Below, piece by piece: positions 91-34,018 of a stretch of 34,018 nt of DNA. The translations under genes and the position numbers were made by a program. The notes under the pieces were generated by a model. That model saw only the letters and a list, made by a program, of their open reading frames with translations, was not told the DNA's origin and did no database searches. Source of the DNA: an uncultured Eubacteriales bacterium (lineage in GTDB: Bacteria; Bacillota; Clostridia; Eubacteriales; Anaerofustaceae). Location: positions 1 through 34,018 of the forward strand of contig CADBPP010000015.1 in assembly GCA_902796565.1 (NCBI GenBank), in the 5' to 3' direction. The first letter of the stretch is position 1. Every line of letters starts with the position of its first letter.

Positions 91-147
91 AAAAAGGTTA
101 GGAGATCACCCCGAAAGCCCCCTGGGGCACACCGGGAAACGACAGTA

Positions 148-1251: not shown

Positions 1252-1268
1252 CGAACAGGAGAGAAAAC

Positions 1269-3176: not shown

Positions 3177-3185
3177 AGGTGAGAA

Positions 3186-5669: not shown

Positions 5670-5693
5670 TTCAAAGCTCCTGCGGAGGCTTTA

Positions 5694-10588: not shown

Positions 10589-10600
10589 TCGTCCTCTTTC

Positions 10601-12139
10601 CTACTTGGCATATTCCGTCGCTCTCGTCTCCCTGATAACGTTGACCTTGATCTGTCCGGGATATTCGAGATCGTTTTCTATCTGCTTGGCTATGTCCCTG
10701 GCGATGTGCACCATCTTCAGGTCGTCCACCACTTCGGGCTTGACCATTATGCGCACTTCCCTGCCGGCGGAGATTGCGTAGCACTTGTCGATGCCGTCGA
10801 AGCTCTTCACCAGCTCCTCCAGCTTCTCGAGCCTTCTGGTGTAGCTCTCAAGAGTCTCCCTTCTGGCTCCGGGCCTTGCCGCGGAAATGGCGTCCGCCGC
10901 CTGGATGAGCACAGCTTCCACCGTGTGGGGCTCCACGTCGCCGTGATGAGCTTCCACCGCGTGGATGACATCGCTGTTCTCCTTGTACTTCTTCAGAAGA
11001 TCGACTCCCAGCTGTACATGGGGACCCTCGACCTCATGGTCTATGGCCTTTCCTATGTCGTGCAGCAGTCCTGCCCTGCGGGCGATCCTGCCGTTGAAGC
11101 CCAGCTCGTCCGCCATGATCCCTGCCAGTATGGAAACCTCCAGGGAGTGCTTCAGCACATTCTGGCCGTAGCTGGTACGGTAGTTCAGTCTTCCGATGAG
11201 CTTCACCAGCTCGGGATGGATCTTTCCGATGTTGGCTTCGAACACGGCGTGTTCTCCCAGCTCCCTCATCTTCTGATCCACTTCCGCCTCGGCCTTTTTG
11301 ACCGTCTCCTCTATCCTGGCGGGATGGATGCGCCCGTCCACGATGAGCCTCTCCAGAGATATCCTGGCGATCTCCCTTCTCACCGGGTCAAAACCCGAAA
11401 GTATGACGGCTTCGGGCGTGTCGTCGATGATAAGGTCTATGCCGGTCAGGGTCTCGAGAGCCCTGATGTTTCTTCCCTCACGGCCTATGATCCTGCCCTT
11501 CATCTCATCCGAAGGCAGGTTCACGACGGAAACGGTGCTCTCCGCCACATGATCGGCGGCGCATCTCTGAATGGCGTAGGTTATGATCTCCTTCGCCTTC
11601 TTGTCTGCCTCTTCCTTCGCTTCCGCTTCCTTGTTCTTTATAAGCAGCGCAGTCTCTCTTGATATCTGTTTTTCTGTTTCATCCAGTAATATCTGTCTTG
11701 CGTCTTCAAATGTTAATTGCGATATCTTTTCCAGCTCATTGATCTGCTGCTGGTACAGTTTGTTTATCTTTTCTTCCTTGTTCTCGATCTCCCTGGCTTT
11801 CCGCTGGGAATTCTCGTCTCTCTTTTCTATCTGATCCATCTTTTTATCGATGGCTTCTTCCTTCTGCATGATGCGGTCTTCCAGTCTTTTGACCTCGTTG
11901 CGTCTGTCATGCATCTCCTTGTCAAGATCTTTCCTCAGACCGTAGATCTCCTCCTTCGCGTCGGCTATACGGTCTTTCTTTATCCTCTCGCTCTCATTCA
12001 CCGCGTCGTTGACGATCTGGGCAGCCTGCTGCCTGGCCTCGGCGACTTTTCCCTTGCCGGAATTGTTAGCCAGGACTATTCCAAGCCCGATGCCGGCGCC
12101 AAGGGCGATGATGATGAGCACATATGCTAATGGACCCAT
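10601..12139 (-). CDS. rny: Ribonuclease Y
   Basis: 512 aa. N-terminal TM helix '[20 protein letters not shown]', long K/E-rich coiled-coil, KH domain '[26 protein letters not shown]', HD domain '[12 protein letters not shown]' and 'AVEAHHGD'. AAGGAGGAG SD upstream. Confidence 0.97.
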
Positions 12140-13559: not shown

Positions 13560-14825
13560 TCAGTCTTCCCCGCCTTCTTCTTCCGAAGATCCTTCCTGCG
13601 GGGCGTTCTCAGGTGCGTCTGAAGCGGGCTCAGCGTCGATGTCCACGGGAGTGGGATCGATGTAGACGGCCGCCTTCTGGTTGTCCATGCACAGATAATA
13701 CTTGCCGGTCTCGAACAGCTGCCTCGGGATCTTTATGACGTCGGCGCTGATCCTCTCGCCTCCCGGCGGGATATTGTCCTTGACCGTGCTGTATTCTATG
13801 CACTTTTCCAGTGAATATATCTGCAGGGCGTTGAAGTCATACACGCCGTAAAGGCCCTTGAGGGGGTCCTCCTGCTGCTCTTCCTCCGAGGCCTCATCGC
13901 CTTGCCCTTCACCGGCTGTCTCCTGAGTGGTATCCTCCACCGGCAGGATGAAGCTTTCCGCGGGAGCGAGCTTCGATGCGATCTCCAGAAGCTCCGCCGC
14001 TTCCTCCCCATCGGGATCGAGGGGAGAGACTGTACCGTCGGAGCCCAGGCTGAAGGGCTTAAGCATGATGTAAGGCGTGATCTCCCAGGTCTGCTCCTGG
14101 TCGGACACGTTCCTGAAGGTGTACATGACCGAGATGTATACATAGTCCGGGTCAAACTGATACGTCAGCATTGAACCCAGCACGTTCACCTCGTCGAAGG
14201 TGACCTCCACCGTTCCGTTGGACACGGTGTCCCCCGCCCTGATGACCTTGAGGGAATCATCCTTTCTGAGCATGGGCAGGAGCTTTACAGCGCCGAAGGC
14301 TATGGCTCCGAGGAGCACGGCTATAAGTATCCACAGCACGACAGTGGTCGCTCCGGAGCGGCGGTCGGACTTCGTCTTTACCTGTCCGTCGCCGTTTTCA
14401 TCAGCGGCCTCATCCTTTTTCTTTCGGGCCTTTTTCTCCCTTTTGGGCTTTTTCCCGCGGGAAGGGGTCTCTTCCCCGGGGGCAGTGTCCTCTTCTCCGT
14501 CGGGACCTTCGGGCTCCTCTCCCGTGAGGGCACCGGAAAGCGCCTCATCTGGAATGAGCGCTTCGGCGGAGGGATCTGAGGAGGGACGCGATTCCCCCTC
14601 ACCGGAGGGAGGCCTCTCCACGGTCTTTGCCGCGTCAAAATCCAGCATGCCGATATCGGCGGGATTGAAATATTCGCTCAGATCGTCATATTCCGTATCC
14701 GCCACCTCGGTGCCGGTCATTATCCCTTCCGGCCTTACAGGCTCGTATGCGGTATCACCGTCTGTTATGTTTTCTGATGCATCGTCCCCTGCGACGGGGG
14801 CAAAATCATCAAGATCTTTGACCAT
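13560..14825 (-). CDS. Hypothetical single-pass membrane protein with acidic disordered N-terminus and an extracytoplasmic beta-rich domain (possibly DUF4352-like)
   Basis: 421-aa ORF packed between serS (19-nt gap) and trpS (13-nt gap). About 130 aa of D/E/P/G-rich sequence, a basic patch 'KKPKREKKARKKKDE', a TM helix 'TTVVLWILIAVLLGAIAFGAVKLL', then 'VEVTFDEVNVLGS...YISVMYTFRNVSDQEQ'. C-terminal acidic tail. Confidence 0.6.
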   Translation of the reverse strand: MVKDLDDFAPVAGDDASENITDGDTAYEPVRPEGIMTGTEVADTEYDDLSEYFNPADIGMLDFDAAKTVERPPSGEGESRPSSDPSAEALIPDEALSGALTGEEPEGPDGEEDTAPGEETPSRGKKPKREKKARKKKDEAADENGDGQVKTKSDRRSGATTVVLWILIAVLLGAIAFGAVKLLPMLRKDDSLKVIRAGDTVSNGTVEVTFDEVNVLGSMLTYQFDPDYVYISVMYTFRNVSDQEQTWEITPYIMLKPFSLGSDGTVSPLDPDGEEAAELLEIASKLAPAESFILPVEDTTQETAGEGQGDEASEEEQQEDPLKGLYGVYDFNALQIYSLEKCIEYSTVKDNIPPGGERISADVIKIPRQLFETGKYYLCMDNQKAAVYIDPTPVDIDAEPASDAPENAPQEGSSEEEGGED

Positions 14826-22774: not shown

Positions 22775-25700
22775 TCAGATCCTTTCAGTGAGGATAAATG
22801 CGTCATGGCCGTTCAGGTTGACCTTTTCGCCTGTATTCTCCGCCACGGTGAGCTCCTGGGAGAGGGTCTCGCGGCAGATGTAGTCGCGGAATGCCTCCAC
22901 CGCTCCGATGACGGTATCGTCGCTGGAGATAGTGAGCTTTATACGGTCAGCCACTTCGTAGCCGCTGGCCTTTCTCAGCTGCTGGACCTTGGAAATGATC
23001 TCCCTGGCGTAGCCTTCGTTGATCAGATCCTTCGTCAGCTCCGTATTGAGTATGATGAACAGGTTGTCCTGCATCTGTACGTCGAAGCCTTCCTTGGCAT
23101 TGATCCTGACGTCCAGCATGTCCCTGGTGAGGCTGAGCTTTTCTCCTTCGATCTCCACGCCGACGCTTCCCTCTTCGCCCAGGACCTTCATGAAGGATGC
23201 GGCGTCGGTGTCCGCGAGATACGAGGCAAGGGCCTTAACCCTGGAGCCGAACAGCTTTCCGCACACCTTGAAGTCGGGCTTTATGGTAAAGTTCATATAG
23301 TCGGCGAGATTCTCCTCGAAGCGCACTTCCTTGACGTTGAGCTCTTCCTTTATAAGGTCGGTAAGGTAGCCGATATCGTCCTTGAGGGACGCGTCCGCCA
23401 TGGCGTATGCCAGTGGCTGGCGCACCTTGATCTGGACCTCTTCCCTGGCGCCGCGGCCCAGGGACACCAGGGTCCTTACCGTATTCATCCTGTAGTTGAG
23501 CTTCTCGTTTATCAGAGCCTCATCATAGGCGGGATAGTCCGCAAGATGCACGCTCTCCCATCCTGTGAGGTCGCGGTAGATCTCCTCGGTGATGTAGGGG
23601 GCGAAGGGAGCCGCCAGGCGGCATATGCCCTCCAGGACCCTGTAGGTGGTGAGAAACACCGCCTTCTTGCTGTCGGAGAGGCCGCTCTCCCAGAAACGCC
23701 TGCGGTTGCGCCTGATGTACCAGTTGGAAAGATCCTCGTTGACGAATTCCTGGATGGCCCTGACGGTCTTGGTGGTGTCATACTCATCCATGTACTGGCG
23801 GCAGTTCTTCACCAGCAGGTTGTATTCGCTGATGAGCCAGTCGTCGATCTCCTCCGTATAGGTGAAGCCCTGGGCGTAGGAGGCGGGATCGATCCCGTCT
23901 GTGTTGGCGTAAAGGGCGAAGAATGCGTATACATTTTTGAAGGTCGTGAAGAACTTGCTTATGACCTCCTTTAATCCCTCCTCGTCGAAGCGGGTGGGCG
24001 TCCATGCCGGAGACACGTACAGCAGGTACCATCTGAGGGCGTCCGCTCCGTACTTGTCGAAGAGCTCGAAGGGATCCACCGTATTGCCCCTGGACTTGGA
24101 CATCTTCTGTCCCTTCGCGTCCAGTATCAGGTCGTTGACCAGCACGTTGCGGTAAGGCGCTACGCCCTTGAGGAAGGTGGAGATGCAGATGAGTGAATAG
24201 AACCATCCTCTCGTCTGATCGATGCCCTCGCAGATGAAGTCCGCGGGGAACTGGTCGTTGAACTTGTCCTCGTTCTCGAACGGATAGTGCCACTGGGCGA
24301 AGGGCATGGAGCCCGAATCGAACCAGCAGTCGATGACGTCCTTTATACGGGTCATGACGCCGCCGCACTTCTCGCACCTGATATGCACTTCGTCCACATA
24401 GGGGCGGTGCAGCTCGATGGATTCGTCGATATCCTCGATGGCCAGCTCCGCCAGCTCCTTTCTGGAGCCCACGGCGTGCACGTGGCCGCACTCGCACTTC
24501 CAGATGTTGAGGGGGGTGCCCCAGTAGCGGTTACGGCTGATGGCCCAGTCCTTGACGTTCTCCAGCCAGTTGCCGAAACGCTTCTCACCTACGAAATCGG
24601 GGAACCAGTTGACGGTCTTGTTGGCTGCCACCAGCTCGTCCTTGTACTTCGTGGTGGAGATATACCAGCTGGGCTTGGCGTAGTACAGAAGGGGCGTCTT
24701 GCATCTCCAGCAGTGGGGATAGTTGTGCTCCATCCTCTGCTTCCTGTAGAGCTTGCCGGTCTCCTTGAGGTATTCTATGATCTTCGGATCGGCGTCCATG
24801 ACGAACAGCCCCGCCCAGGGGGTGGCGGTGTACTTGCCCTGTTCGTCCACGGGGTTCATCACCGAAAGGCCGTAGGCGGCTCCCACATTGTAGTCGTCCT
24901 CGCCGAAGGCGGGGGCGATGTGGACGATGCCGGTGCCGTCGGTGGTGGATACGTAGTCCGCGCAGACCACGAAGAAGGCCTTCTTTCCGTCGGAAGGCTC
25001 AACGAAGGGCATGAGCTGCTCGTACTCCGTGTACTCCAGATCCGCTCCCTTCATCTCCTCCAGGACTTCGTACTCCCCTTCCAGAACGGAGGATGCCAGC
25101 TCCTTCGCCAGGATGTATACGTATCCGCCGCTGGCTACCTTTACGTAGGTCACGTCCCTGTTCACCGCCAGGGCCACGTTGGACGCCAGGGTCCAGGGGG
25201 TGGTGGTCCAGGCCAGGAAGTATTCGTCCCGGTCCTTGATCTTGAAACGAACGTAGACCGTATCGGTCTTGATCATCTGATAGCCCTGGGCCACCTCATG
25301 GGAGGCAAGGCCCGTCCCGCATCTGGGACAGTAGGGCAGTATCTTGTGGCCCTCGTACATGTAGCCCTTCTCAAAGAACTGCTTGAGGATCCACCACTCG
25401 GTCTCGATGTAGTTGTTGTCCAGCGTTATGTACGGATCGTCCAGATCGATGAAATACGCCATCCTGCGGGTCATCTCCCTCCAGAGGGCCTCGTATGAGA
25501 ACACGGAATCCTTGCACTGCTCGTTGAACTCCCTGATGCCGTACTTCTCTATGTCCTGCTTGCCGTTCATGCCAAGCTTCTTTTCGACCTCGATCTCCAC
25601 GGGCAGTCCGTGGGTGTCCCATCCGGCCTTTCTCAGGACCCTGCTCCCCAGCATCGTGTGATATTTGTTGACGCTGTCCTTGAGGGTACGGGCGATCACA

Positions 25701-25870
25701 TGATGGATGCCCGGTTTTCCGTTGGCCGTGGGAGGGCCTTCGAAAAAGACAAAGTTGGCGCTGTCCTTTCTGTTTTCTATGGTGCGCTTCAGGATGTCGA
25801 TATCCTCCCAGTAGCGGGCGATCTCCTTCTCCGTTTCGGCAACGCTCTTCTTGCTGAGTTCCTTAAACAT
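22775..25870 (-). CDS. ileS: Isoleucine--tRNA ligase (long, type-2-like form, 1031 aa)
   Basis: 'FFEGPPTANGKPGIHHVIARTLKD' (HIGH region), 'KMSKSRGN', a CP1 editing domain, and Zn-type Cys pairs 'CPRCGT', 'CWRCKT', 'CECGH', 'CEKCGG'. Start moved from 25945 to ATG 25870 ('MFKELSKKSVAETEKEIARYWEDIDILK') with GGAGGAG SD. The 25-aa track extension would read through the T-box terminator. Confidence 0.96.
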   Translation of the reverse strand: MFKELSKKSVAETEKEIARYWEDIDILKRTIENRKDSANFVFFEGPPTANGKPGIHHVIARTLKDSVNKYHTMLGSRVLRKAGWDTHGLPVEIEVEKKLGMNGKQDIEKYGIREFNEQCKDSVFSYEALWREMTRRMAYFIDLDDPYITLDNNYIETEWWILKQFFEKGYMYEGHKILPYCPRCGTGLASHEVAQGYQMIKTDTVYVRFKIKDRDEYFLAWTTTPWTLASNVALAVNRDVTYVKVASGGYVYILAKELASSVLEGEYEVLEEMKGADLEYTEYEQLMPFVEPSDGKKAFFVVCADYVSTTDGTGIVHIAPAFGEDDYNVGAAYGLSVMNPVDEQGKYTATPWAGLFVMDADPKIIEYLKETGKLYRKQRMEHNYPHCWRCKTPLLYYAKPSWYISTTKYKDELVAANKTVNWFPDFVGEKRFGNWLENVKDWAISRNRYWGTPLNIWKCECGHVHAVGSRKELAELAIEDIDESIELHRPYVDEVHIRCEKCGGVMTRIKDVIDCWFDSGSMPFAQWHYPFENEDKFNDQFPADFICEGIDQTRGWFYSLICISTFLKGVAPYRNVLVNDLILDAKGQKMSKSRGNTVDPFELFDKYGADALRWYLLYVSPAWTPTRFDEEGLKEVISKFFTTFKNVYAFFALYANTDGIDPASYAQGFTYTEEIDDWLISEYNLLVKNCRQYMDEYDTTKTVRAIQEFVNEDLSNWYIRRNRRRFWESGLSDSKKAVFLTTYRVLEGICRLAAPFAPYITEEIYRDLTGWESVHLADYPAYDEALINEKLNYRMNTVRTLVSLGRGAREEVQIKVRQPLAYAMADASLKDDIGYLTDLIKEELNVKEVRFEENLADYMNFTIKPDFKVCGKLFGSRVKALASYLADTDAASFMKVLGEEGSVGVEIEGEKLSLTRDMLDVRINAKEGFDVQMQDNLFIILNTELTKDLINEGYAREIISKVQQLRKASGYEVADRIKLTISSDDTVIGAVEAFRDYICRETLSQELTVAENTGEKVNLNGHDAFILTERI

Positions 25871-25879
25871 TTTCTCCTC

Positions 25880-26112
25880 CGTCAAAAAAATAAAAGTCCT
25901 GTGTGAACAGGACGGATATATCCGCGGTACCACCCGTTTTGGCATATCTCTATGCCCTCTTTAAGTGCCTTAACGCGGCGTACGGGACGGCTTACTGGTT
26001 TTCTGCCGTCCGGCTCCGAAGTGATATTCACCCGCTTTGGGTCATCCGTTCACACCGACCACGGACTCTCTCGGACCTTCCCCGGACTACTCCTCTTCAT
26101 CACGGCTTTTGT
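25880..26112 (-). promoter_or_regulatory. T-box leader (tRNA-Ile sensing transcription attenuator) of ileS
   Basis: The minus strand contains the conserved T-box sequence GGGTGGTACCGCGG (25921-25934). A terminator follows: GTCCTGT-tcac-ACAGGAC (25896-25913) plus TTTTATTTTTTT. Stem-I elements are present ('AGAGAGTCCGTGGTCGGTGTGAACGG'), with a candidate specifier loop 'GGTGAATATCAC' carrying AUC (Ile) at 26022-26024. Confidence 0.88.
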
Positions 26113-26146: not shown

Positions 26147-26231
26147 ATGTATTTTGGGCTTTTCCGATTGTATGGAAAGCTGTGTGATGATATACTCTAT
26201 ACGGAAAAAGTTCCGATCAAGGAGACAGGAA

Positions 26232-27170
26232 ATGGAAAAGGCAACAAACAGGAAATTCGACTGGGTATCCAACGCCCTCATGGGGGCGCTGATGGTCCTT
26301 ACGGGCATCATGATAGTATTCTTCCCAAAGGCGGCCATGAGCATGATACTTATAATGGCGGCCATCGTTTTCTTCGTGACGGGATTCACCGACATGATCG
26401 CCGCGATACGCTACAGGAACGATTCCAAAGGCTGGCAGACAACCCTGTCCTCGGGAATAGTCACTCTCCTGGTGGGAGTGTTCATGGGCTTCACCATCTA
26501 CATGCCCGTCACCCCGATGACCACGGTCATAGTCCTCTGTGTATGGGCGGTGCTCAGATGCCTGCTCACACTGGTGGGCGTCATCATGGGCAAAGTCAGG
26601 AGAAGCGGCACCATCATATCCTCCTGTGTCCTGGGACTCAGCGGCATACTTGTGTTCATCTTCAGGGACGTCCTTGCGGCTTCCACCCTCATCATAGGCT
26701 ACGTGCTTATCGGCGTCGGGGCCGTGCTGATGATCGTGGGCTTCTACAGGAGGGCTGCCGTCAATGAAAAGACGGAGGCCATCGTGCAGAAGGAAAGAGA
26801 AGAGAAAAAGCACGAGAGAGAGGAAAAGCTCGTAGGCGCCATAAATGACAAGGCCCGTCTCAGGGGCCTCGCGGAGGGATACGATACTTTGACCGGCGAA
26901 GAGACCGGCATCGAAGAGGATCAGGCGGACGCACCGCAGGAGGAGGACACATCCTCAGAGGAGCGGGAAGCTTCCGATGAAGCTAATGTCCCCGCGGAGG
27001 AGGAAGCGCCAGGGGAACCTTCACAGGAACGCGCTGACAGTTCCGAAGAGAGCCCCGCAGCTGAAGAGAGCGCGGAGGAAGAGGCTGCCGCAGCGGAGAG
27101 CGCACCTGAGCAGGAAGAAGAACAGCCTGAGGAAAAGAAGGGACTCAGGGGTTTCTTCAGCCGTTTCTGA
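26232..27170 (+). CDS. HdeD/DUF308-like membrane protein with long acidic C-terminal tail
   Basis: Start at ATG 26232 (AAGGAGA SD at 26218-26224). About 175 aa of repeated TM hairpins with the DUF308 pattern ('WVSNALMGALMVLTGIMIVFFP', 'WQTTLSSGIVTLLVGVFMGFTIYMP'). Then about 135 aa of E/A/S/P-rich sequence ending 'KKGLRGFFSRF'. The track start (26154) would overlap the ileS promoter. Confidence 0.7.
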   Translation: MEKATNRKFDWVSNALMGALMVLTGIMIVFFPKAAMSMILIMAAIVFFVTGFTDMIAAIRYRNDSKGWQTTLSSGIVTLLVGVFMGFTIYMPVTPMTTVIVLCVWAVLRCLLTLVGVIMGKVRRSGTIISSCVLGLSGILVFIFRDVLAASTLIIGYVLIGVGAVLMIVGFYRRAAVNEKTEAIVQKEREEKKHEREEKLVGAINDKARLRGLAEGYDTLTGEETGIEEDQADAPQEEDTSSEEREASDEANVPAEEEAPGEPSQERADSSEESPAAEESAEEEAAAAESAPEQEEEQPEEKKGLRGFFSRF

Positions 27171-27181
27171 CACGTATTTCG

Positions 27182-27206
27182 GGCTGCCGTGCCGGCAGCC
27201 TTTTTT
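27182..27206 (+). terminator. Intrinsic terminator of the HdeD-like gene
   Basis: GGCTGCCG-tgc-CGGCAGCC followed by TTTTTT, starting 12 nt after the stop. Confidence 0.85.
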
Positions 27207-27410
27207 AATAAGGAGAGCTGCCTTTTTTTCAACACCGGGGTGTTGATAACAGCTCCGGAAGGCGTTCCTCACAAAAGGGCTTGAGAGCGCGACTTTTGTT
27301 TTTGCCCCCTTTTGGCGCCATTGCGGCACGCTGTTCGAAGGATGGCTCAAAAAACCGTTTACTGAGCAGTTTTATATCGAAAACTGCCCTTTAGCGGTCA
27401 GAAACGGGCA

Positions 27411-27431
27411 CTTATCGACATCTTATCGACA
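27411..27431. repeat. Tandem direct decamer CTTATCGACA x2 (11-bp register)
   Basis: Exact copies at 27411-27420 and 27422-27431, about 90 nt upstream of the GTPase-NYN gene. The core TTATCGACA differs from the DnaA-box consensus TTATCCACA at one position. Confidence 0.5.
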
Positions 27432-27520
27432 AAATGTTCATAACTATGTGCATTTTGGGCCGGGATAAGCCCCCGTGAAGAGGGGCATGTTAAAAAAATA
27501 AAGCAAAAGGATAAAACCGC

Positions 27521-30100
27521 ATGAGAAAGATTACAGCGGGAATGATCGCCCACGTGGACGCGGGAAAGACGACCCTGGCGGAGGCGATGCTCTTCGCCTC
27601 AGGGCAGATCAGAAAACAGGGACGGGTGGACCACCGGGACACGACGATGGACAGCCATCTTCTGGAAAAACAGAGGGGCATAACCATCTTCGCCTCCCAG
27701 GCCTATATCCCCTGGGAGGATACCGGGATATACCTTCTGGATACCCCGGGACATGTGGACTTCTCCAGCGAGACCGAAAGGATAATGCGCATCCTGGACT
27801 GCGCCGTGCTGGTCATCAGCGGCACCGACGGGGTACAGGCCCATACCGTGACGCTGATGGAGATGCTCAGACACTACATGGTGCCCGTCTTCGTCTTCGT
27901 CACCAAGATGGACTACGCCAGGAAAGAAAGAGAAGAACTCCTCTCCGACATGAGAAAGAAGCTGGGAGAGGGCTTCGTCGACATCCTTTCGGAGGGATCA
28001 TCCGAGGAAGCGGCCATGCTGGATGAAGAGCTTCTCGAAAAGTATCTGTCGGAGGGGAAGCTCACGGATGAGGATCTGAGGGGGCTCATAAGATCATTAA
28101 GGCTGTTTCCGGTTTATTTCGGATCGGGCCTTAAGGACAGCGGGATAAACGAGTTCCTTTCATCCCTCTGCGCCCTGTGCCCGAAAAAAACGTATCCCGA
28201 CTCCTTCGGAGCAAGAGTGTTCAAAATAAGCAGGGACCCCCAGGGGGGCCGCCTGACCCACGTGAAGATCACCGGCGGCACAATCAGGGTAAAGGACAGC
28301 ATAGAGACCTCCCCCGCAAAGAGCGAGAAGGTCGACCAGATCAGGATGTATACCGGAGAGCGATTCAATACCGTGAGCGAGGCTTCGGCGGGGGACGTGT
28401 GCGTGCTGACCGGGCTCGGTTCCACCTACAGCGGACAGGGCCTCGGGTTCGAGGAAGACCTTTCGGGAAACCTTATGGAAAGCGTCATGGAATACAGGCT
28501 CAGGCTTCCGGAGGGAGAAGACCCCGTGAGGGCCTTTCGCACCCTGTCCGTCCTCTCGGAGGAGGATCCCTCTCTCAGACTGAGGTATGACAGCTCCCTG
28601 GGGGAGATAAGGATCAGCATCATGGGCCAGGTACAGACCGAGATCCTCACATCAGTCATAAGCGAGCGCTTCGGCATGCAGTGTTCCTTCGACATGGGCC
28701 GTGTGCTCTACAGGGAGACCATCGCTGATACGGTGGAAGGGATCGGGCACTATGAGCCCCTCAGGCATTACGCGGAGGTGCATCTTCTCATGGAACCCCT
28801 CCCGAGAGGGAGCGGCCTCGTATTCGCGGACCGCTGTCCCGACGAGGTACTGGAGCGCAACTGGAGGAACCTGGTCCTCACCCACCTGAGGGAAAAGCAG
28901 CATCCCGGCGTTCTTACAGGCTCACCGGTAACCGACATGAGGATCTCCCTGGTGTCCGGACGCAGCCATCTCAAGCACACCGAAGGCGGGGATTTCCGCC
29001 AGGCCACCTACAGGGCGGTGAGGCAGGGGCTGATGAAGGCGAAAAGCGTCCTCCTGGAGCCCTGGTATTCCTTCACCCTCACTGTCCCTTCCGAAACCGT
29101 GGGAAGGGCCATCAACGACATAAGGATGAGAAACGCCGTCTTTTCCTCCCCCGAGGAGGAGTCCGGCATGAGCGTCATCACCGGAAGGGCGCCTCTCACC
29201 TGTCTCTCGGACTATGCCCGGGAGGTATCATCCTATACTTCCGGCAGGGGAAAATTTTCGATGCAGCTGTGGGGCTACGATGATTGCCACGATCCCGACA
29301 GGGTGATCGAAGAAGCGGGCTACGATCCCATCACGGACCTTGAGAACCCCACCTCCAGCATCTTCTGCGCCAACGGCGGAGGCTTCGACGTCAGATGGGA
29401 CAGGGTGGAGGAATACATGCACCTGGAGAGCTTCCTGAAGACACCTTCTCCCGGGATACCGAAAGTGAAGCAGGCCAACCTGGATCTGGGAGAAAAGGAG
29501 CTTGAAGCCATCATAGAGCGGGAATTCGGCAGGAGCGTCCACCCCTTCTACCGTTCAAGGAGCACTGTGTCCGTCTCCTCCGCAAGGAGCAGCGAGGTCT
29601 ATGAACCCGTAAGGAAGTGGTATGTCATAGACGGCTACAACGTGATCTTCGCGTGGGATGAACTGAGGGACCTGGCACAGCGGGACATCGCAGCCGCCAG
29701 GGAAAAGCTCATCCACATCGTCAGCAACTTTTCCGCCTTTTGCTCGGTGGAAACGGTCCTGGTGTTCGACGGCTACAGGGTAAAGGGATCCTCAGGAGAG
29801 AAGAGCGATTATCAGGGCATACATCTGGTCTATACCATGGAAAACGAGACCGCGGACGCCTACATGCAGAAGCTCCTTTCCGAGATGGGGAAGAACGACC
29901 GTGTATATGTGGTCACCTCCGACAGTCTGGTACAGCTCTCCGCCATGCACTCCGGGGCGCTGAGACGTTCCGCCGCGGACTTCCGCGAAGAGGTGGAGAA
30001 CACCAATGACGAGATAAGAAGGATCCTCGCTTCCCAGGAGAAGGAGAGCTTCGTTATAGGGGAAGCTCTCGAAAACAGGGATGCCGCTCCGAAGGACTGA
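27521..30100 (+). CDS. TetM/TetO/EF-G-like translational GTPase fused to a C-terminal Rae1/YacP-type NYN ribonuclease domain
   Basis: Single uninterrupted 859-aa ORF. GTPase motifs: G1 'AHVDAGKTT' (aa 10-18), 'LEKQRGITI', G3 'DTPGH' (74-78), 'DGVQAHT', G4 'TKMD' (128-131), plus EF-G-like domains II-V ('LEPWYSFTLTVPSETVGRAINDI...'). The C-terminal aa ~700-845 aligns by eye to B. subtilis YacP/Rae1: 'YVIDGYNV' (D704), 'VLVFDGY' (D750), 'MENETADAYM' (D779), 'VYVVTSDS' (D801), 'GALRRSAADFREEVE'. Confidence 0.85.
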   Translation: MRKITAGMIAHVDAGKTTLAEAMLFASGQIRKQGRVDHRDTTMDSHLLEKQRGITIFASQAYIPWEDTGIYLLDTPGHVDFSSETERIMRILDCAVLVISGTDGVQAHTVTLMEMLRHYMVPVFVFVTKMDYARKEREELLSDMRKKLGEGFVDILSEGSSEEAAMLDEELLEKYLSEGKLTDEDLRGLIRSLRLFPVYFGSGLKDSGINEFLSSLCALCPKKTYPDSFGARVFKISRDPQGGRLTHVKITGGTIRVKDSIETSPAKSEKVDQIRMYTGERFNTVSEASAGDVCVLTGLGSTYSGQGLGFEEDLSGNLMESVMEYRLRLPEGEDPVRAFRTLSVLSEEDPSLRLRYDSSLGEIRISIMGQVQTEILTSVISERFGMQCSFDMGRVLYRETIADTVEGIGHYEPLRHYAEVHLLMEPLPRGSGLVFADRCPDEVLERNWRNLVLTHLREKQHPGVLTGSPVTDMRISLVSGRSHLKHTEGGDFRQATYRAVRQGLMKAKSVLLEPWYSFTLTVPSETVGRAINDIRMRNAVFSSPEEESGMSVITGRAPLTCLSDYAREVSSYTSGRGKFSMQLWGYDDCHDPDRVIEEAGYDPITDLENPTSSIFCANGGGFDVRWDRVEEYMHLESFLKTPSPGIPKVKQANLDLGEKELEAIIEREFGRSVHPFYRSRSTVSVSSARSSEVYEPVRKWYVIDGYNVIFAWDELRDLAQRDIAAAREKLIHIVSNFSAFCSVETVLVFDGYRVKGSSGEKSDYQGIHLVYTMENETADAYMQKLLSEMGKNDRVYVVTSDSLVQLSAMHSGALRRSAADFREEVENTNDEIRRILASQEKESFVIGEALENRDAAPKD

Positions 30101-30128
30101 GGGGCTTTTCCCGTTCCACAGAGAAATG

Positions 30129-30169
30129 ATCGGCCGGCGCATACACGCCGGGCCGATTCTTTTTTTTTA
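30129..30169 (+). terminator. Intrinsic terminator of the GTPase-NYN gene
   Basis: An 11-bp GC-rich stem with one bulge (ATCGGCCGGCG / CGCCgGGCCGAT, 30129-30157), followed by TCTTTTTTTTT. Confidence 0.85.
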
Positions 30170-30255: not shown

Positions 30256-32145
30256 TCATCGGCCGAGGATACGGTCGAGCTCATCCGTACCGGAAAGCTC
30301 CTCTTCTTCCGTCTCTTCGCCGGCAGCCGCGGAAGGCTCGTCCTCCGTATGCTCACGGGGCAGCTCTTCCCCTTCCTCTGCGGTTTCATTCCCGGGAGCT
30401 TCTACGGTATCCTCCGGCCCCTTTTCCTCCGGGGCAGCGTCCGGTACTTCCGCGCTGTCTTCGGGAACTTCTTCCACCGGCAGTGCATCTGTGGCGGCCG
30501 GCAGAGCATCCTCCTCAGCCTCATTTCCTCCTTCAGCCCCGTCTTCTTCAGAAGAGATCCTTCCGAGGATAACGTCAAGGCTGTGATGGATTTCATCATC
30601 AGGGGCAGGCGCATTTTCCCCATCAGGCATCTCCGCGGATGGGGCGCTCTGCAGCTGAGGCAGCGCCTCCTCTGCGGGAAGCTCGGTCCTGGCATTGAGG
30701 CCCTTATCCTCCCTGACGGAGAACTCGTCATAGCCCTCGGGGTCCGCGGCGTAGGCGGAAACGCTGGTGATGACTCCGGAACCGGCCTCGGACTTGAGAA
30801 ACTTCTCCCTGTCGGTGTACACCTCATCGATGCCCTCGAGGATCTTCCCCGTTATGTCATGATAATATGTCCCGGCGTATCTCAGTGTCATCTCCTCGGT
30901 GACGCCGTGGTTTTTTATCACATCCGCGTAGAACTCGCCGCTCCTCTTGAGCTTCATCTCACCGCCATCGTAGTCGGTATGCACGAGGCCGTAGCGGGCG
31001 AAATTGCCCTCCAGGAACTCGAAGCTGTCGGTGAAGCTCCTGTAGTAATATCCCTCAAAGTACACGGAAGATTCCGCCATGGCTTTAAGGTGTTCGTAGA
31101 TATATCTGATGCGGAAGAAGTCCTCGTTGTCGCATACGCCGTTCTCGGTCACTATGACGGGAAGGTCCGCGACGGATGTAAGATCCCTGGCGCACTTGAC
31201 CAGGCCCTCGGGACATATGGCGTTCCCGAGATCGCTCACCGGGAAGCCCTCCGGAGCGGGACGCTCCTCGTAACCCGTGACCATGGTGCCGTACTGGTAG
31301 TTCATGGCGATGAAATCGGCGTAGCATCCTTTGGGCATGCCCAGCTTTTTCACGGGCCTTGCGGCAACGCCTGCCAGTACCGCCTTGGCGAAGGACAGGT
31401 ATCCGAAGCTGTCGAGCCAGCCGGCGGCGCGGCGCTGGTAGCCGCTTTTGGGATCCTTCGGCTCATGATATATCGTTGCTATGGAGCAGCTCACCTTCAC
31501 GGGAGAGTATCCCAGCTGATCCGCCGCGGAATGTATAAGGCTGTAGGCCGACATATGGCATCTTGCCATGTTCGTGAGCACTTTGCGGTAGAGCTTGTAG
31601 GACTGTTTTCCGGGAGGGAAGCATCCGTAGAAATATCCGTTGATGGCATAGGTATTGGGTTCATTCATGGTGATGAAATCCTTCACCAGGTCCCCGAAGC
31701 TCTCCACCGCCTTTTTCACGTAGTGCAGGAAGATATCGACGCATCCGTCGTTCTCGAATCCTCCGAGTTCCATGAACCACAGGGGATCCGCGAAGCTGTG
31801 CAGCGTCAGCATGGGAACGATGCCCTTTGAGACGATATACTCCAATATCTCGCGGTAATGCTTAATGACGCCGTTGTTGAACACTCCCCTGGCAGGTTCG
31901 ATGCGGCTCCAGGATACGCCGAGCCTGAAGCGGGAGATGCCCATCTCGGCCATCAGATCCACTTCCCTCTTGTAGTTCTCGTAGAACCCGCATGCCTCAT
32001 CCGGGGACGCGCCGTCCTTTATGTATCCCTTCCTGTACCACTCGTACCAGGTGTTTCTTTTGTCATCTCCCTCGGTCTGCACCGCGCAGGCCGACACTCC
32101 GAGCATTATCTCGCTTTCCGGGATCCTGAGTTCTTCCATAGTCAA
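30256..32145 (-). CDS. Glycoside hydrolase family 1 (beta-glucosidase / 6-phospho-beta-glucosidase-like) with ~190-aa acidic C-terminal extension
   Basis: 629 aa. GH1 acid/base motif 'ITMNEPNTY' and nucleophile motif 'VIVTENGVCD'. Also 'FRLGVSWSRIEP' and 'MLTLHSFADPLWF'. The N-terminal 'F.WG.A.AA.Q.EG' signature is degenerate ('MLGVSACAVQTEGDD'). The tail is E/P/A-rich. Confidence 0.8.
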   Translation of the reverse strand: MTMEELRIPESEIMLGVSACAVQTEGDDKRNTWYEWYRKGYIKDGASPDEACGFYENYKREVDLMAEMGISRFRLGVSWSRIEPARGVFNNGVIKHYREILEYIVSKGIVPMLTLHSFADPLWFMELGGFENDGCVDIFLHYVKKAVESFGDLVKDFITMNEPNTYAINGYFYGCFPPGKQSYKLYRKVLTNMARCHMSAYSLIHSAADQLGYSPVKVSCSIATIYHEPKDPKSGYQRRAAGWLDSFGYLSFAKAVLAGVAARPVKKLGMPKGCYADFIAMNYQYGTMVTGYEERPAPEGFPVSDLGNAICPEGLVKCARDLTSVADLPVIVTENGVCDNEDFFRIRYIYEHLKAMAESSVYFEGYYYRSFTDSFEFLEGNFARYGLVHTDYDGGEMKLKRSGEFYADVIKNHGVTEEMTLRYAGTYYHDITGKILEGIDEVYTDREKFLKSEAGSGVITSVSAYAADPEGYDEFSVREDKGLNARTELPAEEALPQLQSAPSAEMPDGENAPAPDDEIHHSLDVILGRISSEEDGAEGGNEAEEDALPAATDALPVEEVPEDSAEVPDAAPEEKGPEDTVEAPGNETAEEGEELPREHTEDEPSAAAGEETEEEELSGTDELDRILGR

Positions 32146-32357: not shown

Positions 32358-34018
32358 ATGTTAAGTCTTAGAAACATCTCCAAGGAGTATCATACGGGCG
32401 GAGAGACCGTAAAGGCACTCAACAACGTCAGCCTGGACTTCCGTACCAATGAATTCGTATCCATCCTGGGGCCTTCAGGAGGAGGAAAGACCACCCTTTT
32501 GAACATCATAGGGGGGCTCGATCAGTATACCTCGGGAGACCTTATCATAAACGGCAGGAGCACCAAGAAGTACCGTGACCGCGACTGGGACAGCTACCGC
32601 AACCATTCCGTGGGCTTCGTTTTCCAGAGCTACAACCTGATACCGCACCAGAGCGTACTGCAGAACGTGGAGCTGGCCCTCACCCTTTCCGGTGTGAGCC
32701 CTTCAGAAAGAAAGAGAAGGGCCCGTAAGGCCCTGGAAGCAGTCGGGCTGGGTGACCAGATACGCAAAAAGCCCAATGAGATGTCCGGCGGCCAGATGCA
32801 GCGCGTGGCCATTGCCAGGGCAATAGTCAACGATCCGGACATCATCCTGGCGGATGAGCCCACGGGAGCGCTGGATACCCAGACCAGCCTGCAGGTGATG
32901 GAGATCCTGAAAGACATCGCCAGGGACCGCCTGGTGGTGATGGTCACCCACAATCCGGAGCTGGCGGAAAAGTATTCCACCAGGATCGTGCGCTTAAGGG
33001 ACGGACAGATCATAGACGATTCCAACCCCCTCTCCCCCGCGGAGACAGCCTCCGAAAAGGAGATGGAGAAGGCCATGGGACAGAAGAAGGAGAAGAAGCC
33101 CTCCATGTCCCTTCTGACCTCTTTCGGGCTGTCCTTCAAGAACCTTCTCTCGAAGAAGGCCCGCACCCTGCTGACCTCCTTCGCGGGAAGCATCGGGATC
33201 ATAGGCATAGCCCTGATCTACGCCGTGTCCCAGGGCACCAGCAACTACATAGACTCCATACAGCAGGATACCCTTTCGACATATCCTCTCACGATAACGG
33301 CGGAGACGGCGGACATGTCCTCCATCATGACGGCCTTCGGGGCCATGCTCAACGTCAAGGACGACAGACCCGAGGGCACATTGGTGGAAAAGCAGGTCAT
33401 GGGGCAGGTGTTCGCCCAGGTGGGCACCAATGACCTCAAGAGCCTCAAGCACTATATCGACGATCATTACGACGAGATAGACGATTACGTCAACGAGATC
33501 AAGTACAGCTACGGCATATCCCCGAGGGTCTATACCTATGACATCAACGGGGACGTGTTGAGGGTCAACCCCACCAGCATCTTCGCGGGCTATTATTCCG
33601 CATTCATGGGCGGCTCCTCGGTATTCAGCGAGATGATAACCAACAGGGAGCTGCTGGACAGCCAGTACGATATCCTGATGGGTTCCTGGCCCGACAGCTA
33701 CGACGAGCTGGTGTTCGTCCTCTCCGACCGGGGAACCATCACGGACTACATGGCCTACTGCCTGGGCCTTCTGGACCGTGCAGAGATCGAGGAGATGATG
33801 GAAAAGGTGCAGAATTCGGAGGAGATCGTCCTCAGGGAAGTTCCCAACGAATGGACCTATGAGGACATCATGGATCTGGACCTGAGACTGGTATTCGCCT
33901 ATCAGTTCTACCGCTACAATTCCGAATTCAACGTATGGGAGAACATGAGCTCCGACGGAGCTTACGTGGAGGATCTGGTGAAGAACGCGGAGAGACTCAA
34001 GATCTCCGGGATAGTGAT
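32358..34018 (+). CDS. ABC transporter, fused ATP-binding domain and FtsX/MacB-type permease (5' partial; runs off the window)
   Basis: Not in the ORF track because there is no stop inside the window. ATG 32358 follows GAAGGAG. My own translation gives 'MLSLRNISKEYHTGGETVKALNNVSLDF', Walker A 'GPSGGGKTT', 'FVFQSYNLIPH', signature 'MSGGQMQRVAIARA', Walker B 'IILADEPTGALD', 'VTHNPE'. Then a TM helix 'LLTSFAGSIGIIGIALIYAV' and a large extracytoplasmic domain. Confidence 0.85.
   Translation, partial: MLSLRNISKEYHTGGETVKALNNVSLDFRTNEFVSILGPSGGGKTTLLNIIGGLDQYTSGDLIINGRSTKKYRDRDWDSYRNHSVGFVFQSYNLIPHQSVLQNVELALTLSGVSPSERKRRARKALEAVGLGDQIRKKPNEMSGGQMQRVAIARAIVNDPDIILADEPTGALDTQTSLQVMEILKDIARDRLVVMVTHNPELAEKYSTRIVRLRDGQIIDDSNPLSPAETASEKEMEKAMGQKKEKKPSMSLLTSFGLSFKNLLSKKARTLLTSFAGSIGIIGIALIYAVSQGTSNYIDSIQQDTLSTYPLTITAETADMSSIMTAFGAMLNVKDDRPEGTLVEKQVMGQVFAQVGTNDLKSLKHYIDDHYDEIDDYVNEIKYSYGISPRVYTYDINGDVLRVNPTSIFAGYYSAFMGGSSVFSEMITNRELLDSQYDILMGSWPDSYDELVFVLSDRGTITDYMAYCLGLLDRAEIEEMMEKVQNSEEIVLREVPNEWTYEDIMDLDLRLVFAYQFYRYNSEFNVWENMSSDGAYVEDLVKNAERLKISGIV

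What the first reader, a model, noticed from the sequence alone, without database searches (positions are those of the whole stretch)
27521..30100. Translational GTPase (TetM/EF-G-like) fused in-frame to a Rae1/YacP-type NYN endoribonuclease
**Seen in sequence.** One uninterrupted 859-aa ORF.
- Residues 1 to ~640 carry all translational-GTPase signatures (AHVDAGKTT, DTPGH, TKMD, the LEKQRGITI and DGVQAxT motifs shared with TetM/TetO, and EF-G-like domains II-V).
- Residues ~700-845 match the YacP/Rae1 NYN fold motif by motif (VIDGYN, VFDGY, ENETAD, VVTSD, GALRRSA..EV), with all four acidic positions present (D704, D750, D779, D801).

**Established knowledge.**
- B. subtilis Rae1 (YacP) is an A-site, translation-dependent mRNA endonuclease.
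- TetM/EF-G-type factors dock at the GTPase-associated centre and insert domain IV toward the A site.

**Inference.**
- The fusion physically couples a GTP-gated ribosome-docking module to an A-site RNase.
- That makes it a plausible self-contained, ribosome-targeted mRNA (or rRNA/tRNA) cleavage or ribosome-rescue/quality-control factor.
- It is unlikely to be a simple tetracycline-resistance protein.

The gene is monocistronic, with its own 350-nt leader and a strong terminator. I do not know of a characterised protein with this architecture.
Basis: partly seen in the sequence, partly recalled or inferred. Interest (0 to 1): 0.85.

Follow-up and report, generated by a model that had tools for sequence, protein, structure and literature searches.

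The report
Ribosome GTPase fused to Rae1 nuclease
This is a real, conserved chromosomal gene of gut Clostridia that joins an EF-G/TetM-like ribosome-binding GTPase to a Rae1-type RNA-cutting domain; two published surveys had already noticed the fusion but nobody has tested it, and it most likely brings the nuclease to stalled ribosomes and is not a tetracycline-resistance protein.

Summary
ORF 27521-30100 (+) encodes one 859-aa protein with a complete translational GTPase (domains G, II, III, IV, V) and a NYN_YacP/Rae1 nuclease domain. All GTPase motifs and all four NYN aspartates are invariant across 77 homologues. More than 100 independent assemblies carry the same architecture, so it is not an assembly error.

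The architecture is not new. Atkinson 2015 and Matelska 2017 described "Tet–NYN_YacP" fusions in Clostridia. I found no functional study.

New findings here:
- The GTPase is not a true Tet protein. It belongs to a separate clade, sister to TetM/TetO, with its own invariant domain IV loops and C-terminal element.
- That clade also has nuclease-free members in Bacilli and Actinobacteria.
- The "linker" is a conserved module plus a flexible tether of 65-203 aa.
- The gene is a monocistronic core-chromosome gene.

Best reading (inferred): a GTP-gated factor that tethers a Rae1 nuclease to stalled ribosomes. It is a new member of a known but uncharacterised kind, of moderate interest.

The parts
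27181..27210 (+). Intrinsic terminator of the upstream DUF308 membrane-protein gene. It marks the start of an independent transcription unit.
   Evidence: Terminator scan: 9-bp stem (7 GC pairs) followed by a T-run. Conserved in relative L085.
27211..27520 (+). 310-nt untranslated promoter/leader region. It contains a near-invariant block at ~27330-27455, a tandem direct repeat CTTATCGACA at 27411-27420 and 27422-27431, and the Shine-Dalgarno AAGGA at 27507-27511.
   Evidence: Sequence. Alignment with the leader of an 88%-identical orthologue. No Rfam family at E<=1 apart from a sub-threshold chance hit on the upstream terminator. Fold z-score only -2.1. The only uORF candidate is not conserved.
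27521..28195 (+). G domain (residues 1-225) with a short G' insertion. Motifs: G1 AHVDAGKTT, G3 DTPGH (catalytic H78), G4 TKMD, G5 FGSGLK.
   Evidence: Pfam GTP_EFTU, E 1.4e-48. Motifs invariant in 77 sequences.
28196..28696 (+). EF-G-type domains II (residues 226-310) and III (residues 311-392).
   Evidence: Pfam EF-G_D2 and EFG_III. AF2 model and Foldseek hits to EF-G.
28697..29044 (+). Domain IV (residues 393-508), the most conserved part of the family. Clade-specific tip loops: G.GH[YF]E-PLRHYAEVHL and GR[AS]H.KHTEGGDFRQATYRA.RQGL.
   Evidence: Pfam EFG_IV. 48% invariant columns and dN/dS 0.055. Loop comparison with TetM, TetO and EF-G.
29045..29290 (+). Domain V (residues 509-590).
   Evidence: Pfam EFG_C. 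dN/dS 0.024.
29291..29440 (+). Clade-specific C-terminal module (residues 591-640). It has a helix equivalent to the EF-G C-terminal helix, then a beta-hairpin and short helix with the motif DS[VI]FC.HG.G..V.W..V..YMH.
   Evidence: 30% invariant columns. No Pfam or PDB sequence match. 587 representative clusters carry it. It is present in the nuclease-free relatives. Moderately confident in the full-length model but not in isolation.
29441..29614 (+). Flexible tether (residues 641-698) containing one conserved amphipathic helix (EKELEAIIEREFG, residues ~658-670).
   Evidence: pLDDT 29-55. Length 65-203 aa across 93 family members. dN/dS 0.19. The helix is predicted but not docked onto the NYN domain.
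29615..30067 (+). Rae1/YacP-type NYN endoribonuclease domain (residues 699-849) with D704-GYN, D750, D779 and D801.
   Evidence: Pfam NYN_YacP, 142 bits. Alignment to 5MQ8. Aspartates invariant. D7N/D81N is the published Rae1 catalytic mutant (PMC10351889). dN/dS 0.042.
30068..30100 (+). Poorly conserved C-terminal tail and the TGA stop codon (30098-30100).
   Evidence: No invariant columns and dN/dS 0.45 for residues 839-859. Sequence.
30128..30168 (+). Intrinsic terminator: a GC-rich hairpin at 30128-30158, then T9 at 30160-30168.
   Evidence: Fold: -20.6 kcal/mol, z = -4.93, 0 of 200 shuffles fold as well. Sequence.

Best explanation
**Shown.** The gene encodes a single polypeptide with two parts.
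- A catalytically intact EF-G-fold translational GTPase. It belongs to a distinct clade, sister to the Tet ribosomal-protection proteins.
- A catalytically intact Rae1/YacP NYN endoribonuclease. It is joined through a conserved C-terminal module and a flexible tether of ~60 aa (up to ~200 aa in relatives).
- The gene is a monocistronic housekeeping gene in the core chromosome of many Clostridia.

**Inferred.**
1. The GTP form docks at the ribosomal factor-binding site. It probes the decoding centre with its invariant domain IV tip, and so selects ribosomes that cannot progress (stalled or collided).
2. While the GTPase is docked, the tethered Rae1 domain cuts the mRNA at the periphery of that ribosome. 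[quoted passage not shown]
3. GTP hydrolysis then releases the factor.
4. The truncated mRNA sends the ribosomes to tmRNA rescue. This is the same logic as the Rae1/CART pathway of B. subtilis, but with recruitment built into the protein.

The nuclease-free relatives imply that the GTPase recognises ribosomes on its own, and that the nuclease is an add-on in Clostridia.
For: **Both enzymes look active.**
- Architecture and motifs.
- Both halves are under strong purifying selection: dN/dS 0.02-0.17 for the GTPase domains and 0.04 for the NYN domain.
- D704 and D779 equal D7 and D81 of Rae1. The D7N/D81N double mutant abolishes Rae1 function (PMC10351889).

**The GTPase reads the decoding centre.**
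- Domain IV is the most conserved region, with 48% invariant columns.
- It keeps the His that aligns with the loop His in E. coli EF-G 'GSYHDVD'.
- The rest of its loops are unlike both Tet and EF-G.

**The nuclease hangs on a leash.**
- The tether has low pLDDT, variable length of 65-203 aa and relaxed dN/dS.
- That fits a nuclease acting some distance from the docking site.

**Rae1 biology fits.**
- Its way of recognising ribosomes is unknown and its binding is transient. A covalent ribosome-docking module would solve exactly that problem.

**Housekeeping context.**
- The gene lies in the recF-gyrBA … IleRS core region.
- GC content matches the neighbours.
- There is no defence-system match and no conserved operon partner in 17 loci.

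**The clade is coherent.**
- Fused and non-fused members form one clade in 100 of 100 bootstraps.
Against: - There are no experimental data for any member. The substrate (mRNA, rRNA or tRNA) is not known.
- The models cannot place the NYN domain relative to the GTPase (pTM 0.48). No coordinates were available for docking on a ribosome.
- The very strong conservation of the domain IV tip would also fit insertion into a vacant A site, as in Tet. That favours a leading stalled ribosome over a collided one, or A-site-proximal chemistry.
- I could not establish whether genomes with the fusion also keep a stand-alone Rae1. So it is unknown whether the fusion replaces Rae1 or adds to it.
- No link to smpB/ssrA or to RQC genes appears in the neighbourhood.
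Confidence: 0.5

Rival explanations
1. rRNA- or tRNA-directed nuclease. The GTPase docks at the factor site and the NYN domain cuts ribosomal RNA or a bound tRNA. The purpose would be rRNA maturation or quality control, ribosome inactivation, or turnover. [quoted passage not shown]
For: - Atkinson 2015 proposed it.
- Before Rae1 was characterised, NYN_YacP was predicted to act in an rRNA/tRNA processome, because stand-alone yacP sits next to mrnC and rlmB.
- The docking site is surrounded by rRNA (SRL, GAC, h44/H69; established knowledge of EF-G and TetM complexes).
Against: - The only characterised family member, Rae1, cleaves mRNA and not rRNA.
- The long tether of variable length argues against a fixed rRNA target next to the docking site.
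- The gene here has no neighbourhood link to rRNA-processing genes.
Confidence: 0.2
2. The factor inserts domain IV toward the A site and the NYN domain cleaves the A-site mRNA codon, like RelE, on ribosomes with an empty A site.
For: - In TetM the C-terminal extension runs back toward the decoding centre (my recollection of the TetM-70S structures 3J9Y/3J25, not tested here).
- Domain IV is extremely conserved.
- Rae1 could be docked into the A site in an earlier model.
Against: - The A-site model for Rae1 has been retracted by its authors in favour of cleavage 12 nt upstream.
- With domain IV in the A site there is no room for a ~150-aa NYN domain as well (inference from EF-G and TetM complexes).
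- The TetM C-terminal extension is not conserved here.
- The tether is long, disordered and variable.
Confidence: 0.15
3. A bona fide tetracycline ribosomal-protection protein, as NCBI names many members, in which the NYN domain is an accessory.
For: - The best NCBIfam hit is tet_protect.
- The clade is sister to TetM/TetO.
- RefSeq and GenBank name members 'TetM/TetW/TetO/TetS family…'.
Against: - It scores 413 bits against the 775-bit cut-off.
- Identity to TetM is 30%, no higher than to EF-G at 31%.
- The TetM/TetO loop sequences and C-terminal extension are replaced.
- It lies in core chromosome with no mobile element.
- It is conserved across Lachnospiraceae, Oscillospiraceae and other Clostridia as a single-copy gene.
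- Newer RefSeq annotation already uses 'translation factor GTPase family protein'.
Confidence: 0.07
4. Artefact: two adjacent genes merged by a frameshift or an assembly error.
For: None found.
Against: - The same continuous ORF occurs in more than 100 independent clusters and in finished genomes of cultured species.
- The junction region is itself conserved.
Confidence: 0.01

Closest known systems
Published 'Tet–NYN_YacP' fusion proteins of Clostridia (Atkinson 2015, BMC Genomics, Additional file 8; Matelska et al. 2017, NAR)
   Same: The architecture is identical: trGTPase domains G-V plus a C-terminal NYN_YacP domain. The motifs match too, for example 'GRAHLKHTEGGDFRQATYRAVRQGL' and 'DSVFC.HG.G' in the R. 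albus, E. rectale and C. thermocellum proteins. The window protein is one more member, from an uncultured Eubacteriales MAG.
   Different: Nothing essential. Those papers filed the GTPase as 'Tet' and left the function open (a resistance mechanism or an rRNA RNase). Neither noted the separate clade, the nuclease-free relatives or the conserved C-terminal module.
Tet(M)/Tet(O) ribosomal protection proteins
   Same: Five-domain EF-G fold with a short G' insertion. The window protein aligns in a single full-length stretch to TetM and TetO. The two clades are sisters in the tree.
   Different: - Only ~30% identity.
- Domain IV loops I and III and the C-terminal extension are replaced.
- Below the NCBIfam cut-off.
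- Chromosomal core gene, not on a transposon or plasmid.
- Carries a nuclease domain.
EF-G
   Same: - The overall fold; the top Foldseek hits are all EF-G chains.
- An intact GTPase centre.
- The His aligned with the loop His in E. coli EF-G 'GSYHDVD' is retained.
- The helix after domain V aligns with the EF-G C-terminal helix.
   Different: - 28-31% identity.
- Loop I lacks the GGRGQ[YF]G motif and is 4 residues shorter.
- Shorter G' insertion.
- Below the EF-G model cut-offs.
- Has an extra C-terminal module, tether and nuclease.
Rae1/YacP of Bacillus subtilis (PDB 5MQ8)
   Same: - An NYN_YacP domain with D-GYN and four Asp, including the D7 and D81 equivalents.
- A C-terminal helix after the nuclease core.
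- A presumed ribosome-associated function.
   Different: - Rae1 is a free ~170-aa protein encoded in the cysS-mrnC-rlmB-yacP-sigH cluster.
- Here the domain is covalently tethered to a GTPase and encoded elsewhere.
- Identity is ~34-38%.
Collision- or stall-sensing mRNA endonucleases SmrB (E. coli), Cue2 and NONU-1 (eukaryotes), and GTPase-delivered rescue factors (Hbs1-Dom34/Pelota)
   Same: Functional analogy only. A nuclease or rescue module is brought to a stalled or collided ribosome, and the mRNA is cut so that rescue (tmRNA or no-go decay) can proceed.
   Different: - The folds are unrelated (SMR versus NYN).
- None of them is fused to a translational GTPase.
- Hbs1 delivers a non-nucleolytic partner in trans (established knowledge).

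Membership tests
Tet ribosomal protection proteins (TetM/O/W/Q…) | Reaches the curated NCBIfam equivalog model NF012153 tet_protect (cut-off 775 bits) | tested here: not met
   413.4 bits. The specific models for Tet(M), Tet(Q), TetM/W/O/S and Otr(A) are also far below their cut-offs.
Tet ribosomal protection proteins (TetM/O/W/Q…) | Domain IV loop III as in TetM/TetO (…GLYYSPVSTPADFR…). From my own knowledge of the TetM and TetO structural papers, this loop dislodges tetracycline. | tested here: not met
   The aligned segment is GRSHLKHTEGGDFR, invariant in the family. Loop I (PPNPFWAS in TetM) is replaced by a shorter PLRHYAEV.
Tet ribosomal protection proteins (TetM/O/W/Q…) | C-terminal extension as in TetM/TetO (CQPRRPNSRIDKVRYMF…) | tested here: not met
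   Replaced by CHDPDRVIEEAGYDP…SSIFCANGGGFDVRWDRVEEYMH.
Tet ribosomal protection proteins (TetM/O/W/Q…) | Confers tetracycline resistance | not testable with these tools
   Needs MIC assays.
Tet ribosomal protection proteins (TetM/O/W/Q…) | Phylogenetic placement inside the Tet clade | tested here: not met
   The family forms a sister clade on a long branch. It is monophyletic in 100/100 bootstraps and TetM+TetO is separate in 100/100. Only two Tet sequences were included, so the position relative to Tet(Q), TetB(P) and Otr(A) was not resolved.
EF-G | Reaches the curated EF-G models (TIGR00484 cut-off 659; NF009381 cut-off 583) | tested here: not met
   299 and 364 bits.
EF-G | Domain IV loop I GGRGQ[YF]G and loop 'SYHDVDSSE' | tested here: not met
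   Loop I is GHYE-PLRHYAEV. Only the His of the second loop (H483) is retained.
Translational GTPase superfamily (EF2/EF-G-like family) | GTP_EFTU G domain with G1-G5 and a catalytic His, plus domains II-V | tested here: met
   Pfam hits for all domains. Motifs invariant. EF-G fold by Foldseek.
NYN_YacP / Rae1 | Pfam PF05991 above the gathering score | tested here: met
   142 bits against 24.6.
NYN_YacP / Rae1 | 'GYN' motif after the first Asp, and at least four active-site Asp (Matelska 2017) | tested here: met
   D704-G-Y-N, D750, D779 and D801, all invariant in 77 sequences.
NYN_YacP / Rae1 | Equivalents of Rae1 D7 and D81 (the D7N/D81N double mutant is catalytically dead) | tested here: met
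   D704 and D779 in the alignment to 5MQ8. Mutant cited from PMC10351889.
NYN_YacP / Rae1 | Stand-alone ~170-aa protein in the cysS-mrnC-rlmB-yacP-sigH cluster (the orthologue context of B. subtilis rae1) | tested here: not met
   The domain is fused and encoded between a DUF308 gene and a GH1 gene. The canonical cluster is seen in C. difficile.
NYN_YacP / Rae1 | Translation-dependent mRNA cleavage upstream of stalled ribosomes that triggers tmRNA rescue | not testable with these tools
   Needs end-mapping and tmRNA-tagging experiments.
NYN_YacP / Rae1 | Curated NCBIfam model for Rae1 | tested here: inconclusive
   No NCBIfam model matches either this domain or the C. difficile stand-alone protein. 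No such HMM appears to exist.
Anti-phage defence systems (PADLOC) | Match to any PADLOC-DB model | tested here: not met
   0 families at E<=0.01.

The most novel reading that the evidence does not exclude
The GTPase half defines an unnamed translational-GTPase subfamily, sister to the Tet proteins. Its markers are the domain IV motif 'KHTEGGDFRQ' and the C-terminal 'DSVFC.HG.G..V.W…YMH' hairpin. On this reading, its ancestral job is to recognise translocation-blocked or collided ribosomes. In Clostridia it has captured Rae1, creating a self-contained, GTP-gated 'seek-and-cut' ribosome-rescue factor. That would be a bacterial counterpart of GTPase-delivered no-go-decay machinery. In these lineages it could be the only Rae1 activity. 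It would also reveal how free Rae1 finds ribosomes, possibly through the nuclease-free GTPase in trans in Bacilli and Actinobacteria that have both.
Probability: 0.3. Interest if true: 0.8.

Novelty: new member of a known kind. Interest (0 to 1): 0.5.

Why it matters
Rae1 has just been placed at the centre of a collision-rescue pathway in Gram-positive bacteria (CART, 2025-26). How it recognises ribosomes is unknown, because its binding is too transient to capture. A natural fusion of Rae1 to a factor-site GTPase is abundant in gut Lachnospiraceae and Oscillospiraceae and present in tractable species such as C. thermocellum. It offers a stable handle for structural work and a direct hypothesis for recruitment.

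There are two practical consequences:
- Many database entries call these proteins tetracycline-resistance determinants, and the evidence here does not support that. This inflates resistome counts in gut metagenomes.
- HMM-based surveys of Rae1 with no length filter silently count these fusions as ordinary Rae1.

Tried and rejected
1. **Co-occurrence of the fusion with a stand-alone Rae1 in one genome. Inconclusive.**
   - tblastn of the NYN domain against the plasmid collection found only the fused copy in the Monoglobus and Agathobacter fragments, but those records are partial genomes.
   - I looked for the canonical cysS-rlmB-yacP cluster in a fusion-lineage genome. This led to a Subdoligranulum fragment where the synteny is not kept.
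   - No supplementary tables were held for the 2017 and 2026 papers.
2. **Conserved operon partners.** None were found in 17 fused loci.
3. **Second NYN copy within ±10 kb.** None.
4. **Riboswitch, attenuator or leader peptide in the 5' leader.** There was no Rfam hit, only a weak fold signal, and the single uORF candidate is not conserved.
5. **Defence-system membership.** No PADLOC hit.
6. **Independent fold for the 591-700 region.** There was no Pfam or PDB sequence match. A separate AF2 run of residues 585-859 gave low confidence for the module and no docking of the tether helix.
7. **The ~290-330-aa 'module + NYN' proteins in the representative search.** I judge these to be N-terminally truncated gene calls that start at a conserved internal Met of domain V, and not a split form.
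8. **First bootstrap script.** It timed out and was rewritten.
9. **Leroy 2017.** The paper is not held.


Full report
**1. The observation**

Pfam finds a full EF-G-type translational GTPase followed by a NYN_YacP domain:
- GTP_EFTU, residues 4-221, E 1.4e-48
- EF-G_D2, 230-305
- EFG_III, 337-389
- EFG_IV, 393-508
- EFG_C, 510-590
- NYN_YacP, 702-849, E 2.4e-41, 142 bits against a gathering score of 24.6

The nuclease domain aligns over 135 residues to the crystal-structure sequence of B. subtilis YacP/Rae1 (5MQ8/5MQ9, E 7e-21). In that alignment D704, D750, D779 and D801 correspond to D7, D53, D81 and D104. D7N/D81N is the published catalytically dead Rae1 (PMC10351889).

In a 77-sequence alignment of full-length homologues, the four aspartates, the P-loop AHVDAGKTT, DTPGH with the catalytic His78, and TKMD are all invariant.

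**2. It is not an artefact**

- More than 100 protein clusters of 845-904 aa, from ENA, NCBI, JGI and Logan assemblies, carry the same Pfam architecture at 54-88% identity. Some clusters hold hundreds of member sequences.
- The species-representative genome collection holds full-length fusions in Oscillospiraceae, Lachnospiraceae, Blautia, Acetatifactor, Pseudobutyrivibrio, Clostridiaceae and other Clostridia. RefSeq annotates one in Monoglobus pectinilyticus.
- Against an 88%-identical orthologue, dN/dS is 0.04 for the NYN domain, 0.02-0.17 for the five GTPase domains, 0.10 for the 591-640 module, 0.19 for the tether and 0.45 for the last 21 residues. Both enzymatic halves are maintained by selection.

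**3. Gene context**

The window is origin-proximal core chromosome. The gene order is recF, gyrB, gyrA, a DinG-like helicase, phosphoglucomutase, YmdB, RNase Y, Trp/Tyr-tRNA synthetase, SerRS, an EngB-like GTPase, Lon, DUF4153, an ATP-grasp protein, IleRS with a T-box leader, a DUF308 membrane protein, the fusion gene, and a convergent GH1 glycosidase.

- GC content is uniform across the window.
- There is no tRNA or tmRNA gene, and the annotated ORFs show no mobile-element or resistance-cassette genes.
- The upstream gene has its own terminator.
- The fusion gene is followed by a strong hairpin (-20.6 kcal/mol, z = -4.9) and T9.
- Across 17 fused loci, no neighbouring gene recurs beyond chance and no second NYN gene lies within 10 kb.

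The gene is therefore monocistronic and has no operon partner.

The 310-nt leader has no Rfam match. It does contain a block at ~27330-27455 that is nearly identical in the 88% orthologue, including a tandem CTTATCGACA repeat. This is probably a promoter/operator. The only uORF candidate is not conserved.

**4. What the GTPase is**

The best curated model is NCBIfam tet_protect, but at 413 bits against a cut-off of 775. EF-G models are also far below their cut-offs.

Identity to Tet(Q), TetB(P), Tet(M) and Tet(O) is 30-32%, and to EF-G 28-31%.

I built a MAFFT alignment of fused proteins, TetM, TetO and nine EF-Gs, and a neighbour-joining tree on 593 columns. In that tree the family is monophyletic in 100 of 100 bootstraps. 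It groups with TetM/TetO against EF-G in 100 of 100, on a long branch.

The sequences at the functional tip of domain IV are clade-specific:

| Element | This family | EF-G | TetM |
|---|---|---|---|
| Loop I | G.GH[YF]E-PLRHYAEVHL | KQSGGRGQYGHV | HIEVPPNPFWASIGL |
| Loop III | GR[AS]H.KHTEGGDFRQATYRA.RQGL | GSYHDVDSSEMAFK | GLYYSPVSTPADFR |

Only the His aligned with the His of E. coli EF-G 'GSYHDVD' is shared with EF-G. The TetM/TetO C-terminal extension is absent. Domain IV is the most conserved part of the whole protein, with 48% invariant columns against 29% for the G domain.

**5. The 'linker'**

Residues 591-640 are conserved, with 30% invariant columns. The motif is Y..D..N..S.FC..G.GF.V.W..V..MHL.
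- The first helix aligns with the C-terminal helix of EF-G. It is followed by a predicted beta-hairpin and a short helix.
- The module has no Pfam or PDB sequence match.
- It occurs in 587 representative clusters.
- It loses model confidence when cut away from the GTPase, so it probably packs on the GTPase body.

Residues 641-698 are a tether.
- They have low pLDDT and relaxed dN/dS.
- The length is 65-67 aa in the window's clade but reaches 203 aa elsewhere.
- One conserved amphipathic helix (EKELEAIM.REFG) sits in the tether. It does not dock on the NYN domain in the model.

Foldseek against the PDB returns only EF-G-type chains. No solved structure has this architecture.

**6. Nuclease-free relatives**

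Four loci in the genome scan match only residues 1 to ~634-649.
- The Neobacillus cucumis protein (648 aa) and the Bifidobacterium avesanii protein (741 aa) end just after the YMH motif and are followed by unrelated genes.
- A Coriobacteriaceae protein and an Intestinibacter protein behave the same way.
- None has a NYN gene within 10 kb.
- All keep the KHT[ES]GGDFR loop.
- They nest inside the family in the tree; a fused-only clade was recovered in 0 of 100 bootstraps.

So the GTPase with its C-terminal hairpin is an autonomous factor. The nuclease was added, or lost, more than once.

The short 'module + NYN' proteins in the representative search start at a conserved internal Met of domain V. 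They are most simply truncated gene calls.

**7. What is already known**

[quoted passage not shown] Additional file 8 lists R. albus 7, E. eligens, E. rectale, B. proteoclasticus, C. cellulolyticum, C. lentocellum, L. phytofermentans, C. thermocellum and D. hafniense.
- Matelska 2017 noted the 'TetM-NYN_YacP fusion' and called its role unclear.
- Seven literature searches found no functional study.
- The Rae1 field has moved. [quoted passage not shown]
- Rae1 is needed for the rise in tmRNA tagging after ribosome collisions, a pathway named CART. Its mode of ribosome recognition is unknown because binding is transient (PMC13622287).
- That survey detected Rae1 by hmmsearch with no length filter, so fusions like this one would be counted as Rae1.

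**8. Mechanism**

Shown: two intact enzymes on one chain, joined by a flexible leash. The GTPase belongs to a ribosome-factor family, and its A-site-probing domain is under the strongest constraint.

Inferred:
- The GTPase docks at the factor-binding site of ribosomes that cannot advance.
- The leash lets the Rae1 domain reach mRNA at the edge of that ribosome.
- From established knowledge of ribosome geometry, the factor site lies on the same side as the mRNA entry channel. In a disome, the entry channel of the trailing ribosome faces the exit side of the stalled one, which is where free Rae1 is now thought to cut.
- GTP hydrolysis would time or terminate the encounter, and the cut would hand the ribosomes to tmRNA.

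I put this at about 0.5. The general idea of ribosome-dependent mRNA cleavage is somewhat more likely than that, and the specific geometry less.

Rivals:
- An rRNA or tRNA target (0.2).
- Genuine tetracycline protection (0.07).
- An artefact (0.01).

**9. Verdict**

The protein is a new member of a fusion family that is documented but functionally uncharacterised.

Its interest lies in timing. It is a ready-made structural and genetic handle on the open question of how Rae1 finds ribosomes. It also shows that 'tetracycline resistance protein' is the wrong label for these genes.

The largest gap is whether genomes with the fusion also keep a free Rae1.

Noticed in passing
L016, L017 (5144-7090), L019 (10001-12226), L020: Nuclease-free members of the same GTPase clade occur in Coriobacteriaceae, Neobacillus cucumis (648 aa), Bifidobacterium avesanii (741 aa) and Intestinibacter bartlettii. 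They keep the KHT[ES]GGDFR domain IV loop and end right after the C-terminal 'FC..G.G..V.W…YMH' hairpin. This trGTPase subfamily appears to be unnamed.
   Followed up: partly
window 27330-27455 (tandem CTTATCGACA at 27411-27420 and 27422-27431): A block of the 5' leader is almost identical in an orthologue whose protein is only 88% identical, so it is more conserved than the coding sequence. It includes an 11-nt-period direct repeat, possibly an operator or promoter. Matelska 2017 mentioned HTH-protein genes near some fusion genes.
   Followed up: partly
window 25905-26112 (-): A T-box leader (134.8 bits, full length) lies upstream of the isoleucyl-tRNA synthetase gene (22775-25945, -), with a promoter-like site at 26147-26119.
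   Followed up: no
window 26154-27170 (+) and 30256-32145 (-): Both genes flanking the fusion (the DUF308 membrane protein and the GH1 glycosidase) end in long Glu/Ala/Pro-rich, low-complexity acidic tails of ~100-170 aa.
   Followed up: no
L019 10001-12226: The Bifidobacterium nuclease-free homologue has a ~55-aa Gly/Asp/Ala-rich insertion at the domain IV/V boundary. It is absent from all other family members.
   Followed up: no
P0123 (500 aa; representative-library hit): A protein with the G domain (10-155), part of domain V, the C-terminal module and the NYN domain, but no domains II-IV. It is either a chimeric assembly or a naturally minimised variant.
   Followed up: no
window 1-8051 and 9806-12139: The window starts with recF-gyrB-gyrA, which is origin-proximal. 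It also carries the RNase Y-YmdB pair, so the contig is core chromosome.
   Followed up: partly
database annotation and PMC13622287 methods: Members are variously named 'TetM/TetW/TetO/TetS family tetracycline resistance ribosomal protection protein', 'small GTP-binding protein', 'elongation factor G' and 'translation factor GTPase family protein'. The 2026 Rae1 phylogenomic survey used no length filter, so it would count these fusions as Rae1.
   Followed up: partly
window 13560-14825 (-) and 32630-33208 (-): Two sizeable ORFs (420 aa and 191 aa) have no Pfam match at the thresholds used.
   Followed up: no
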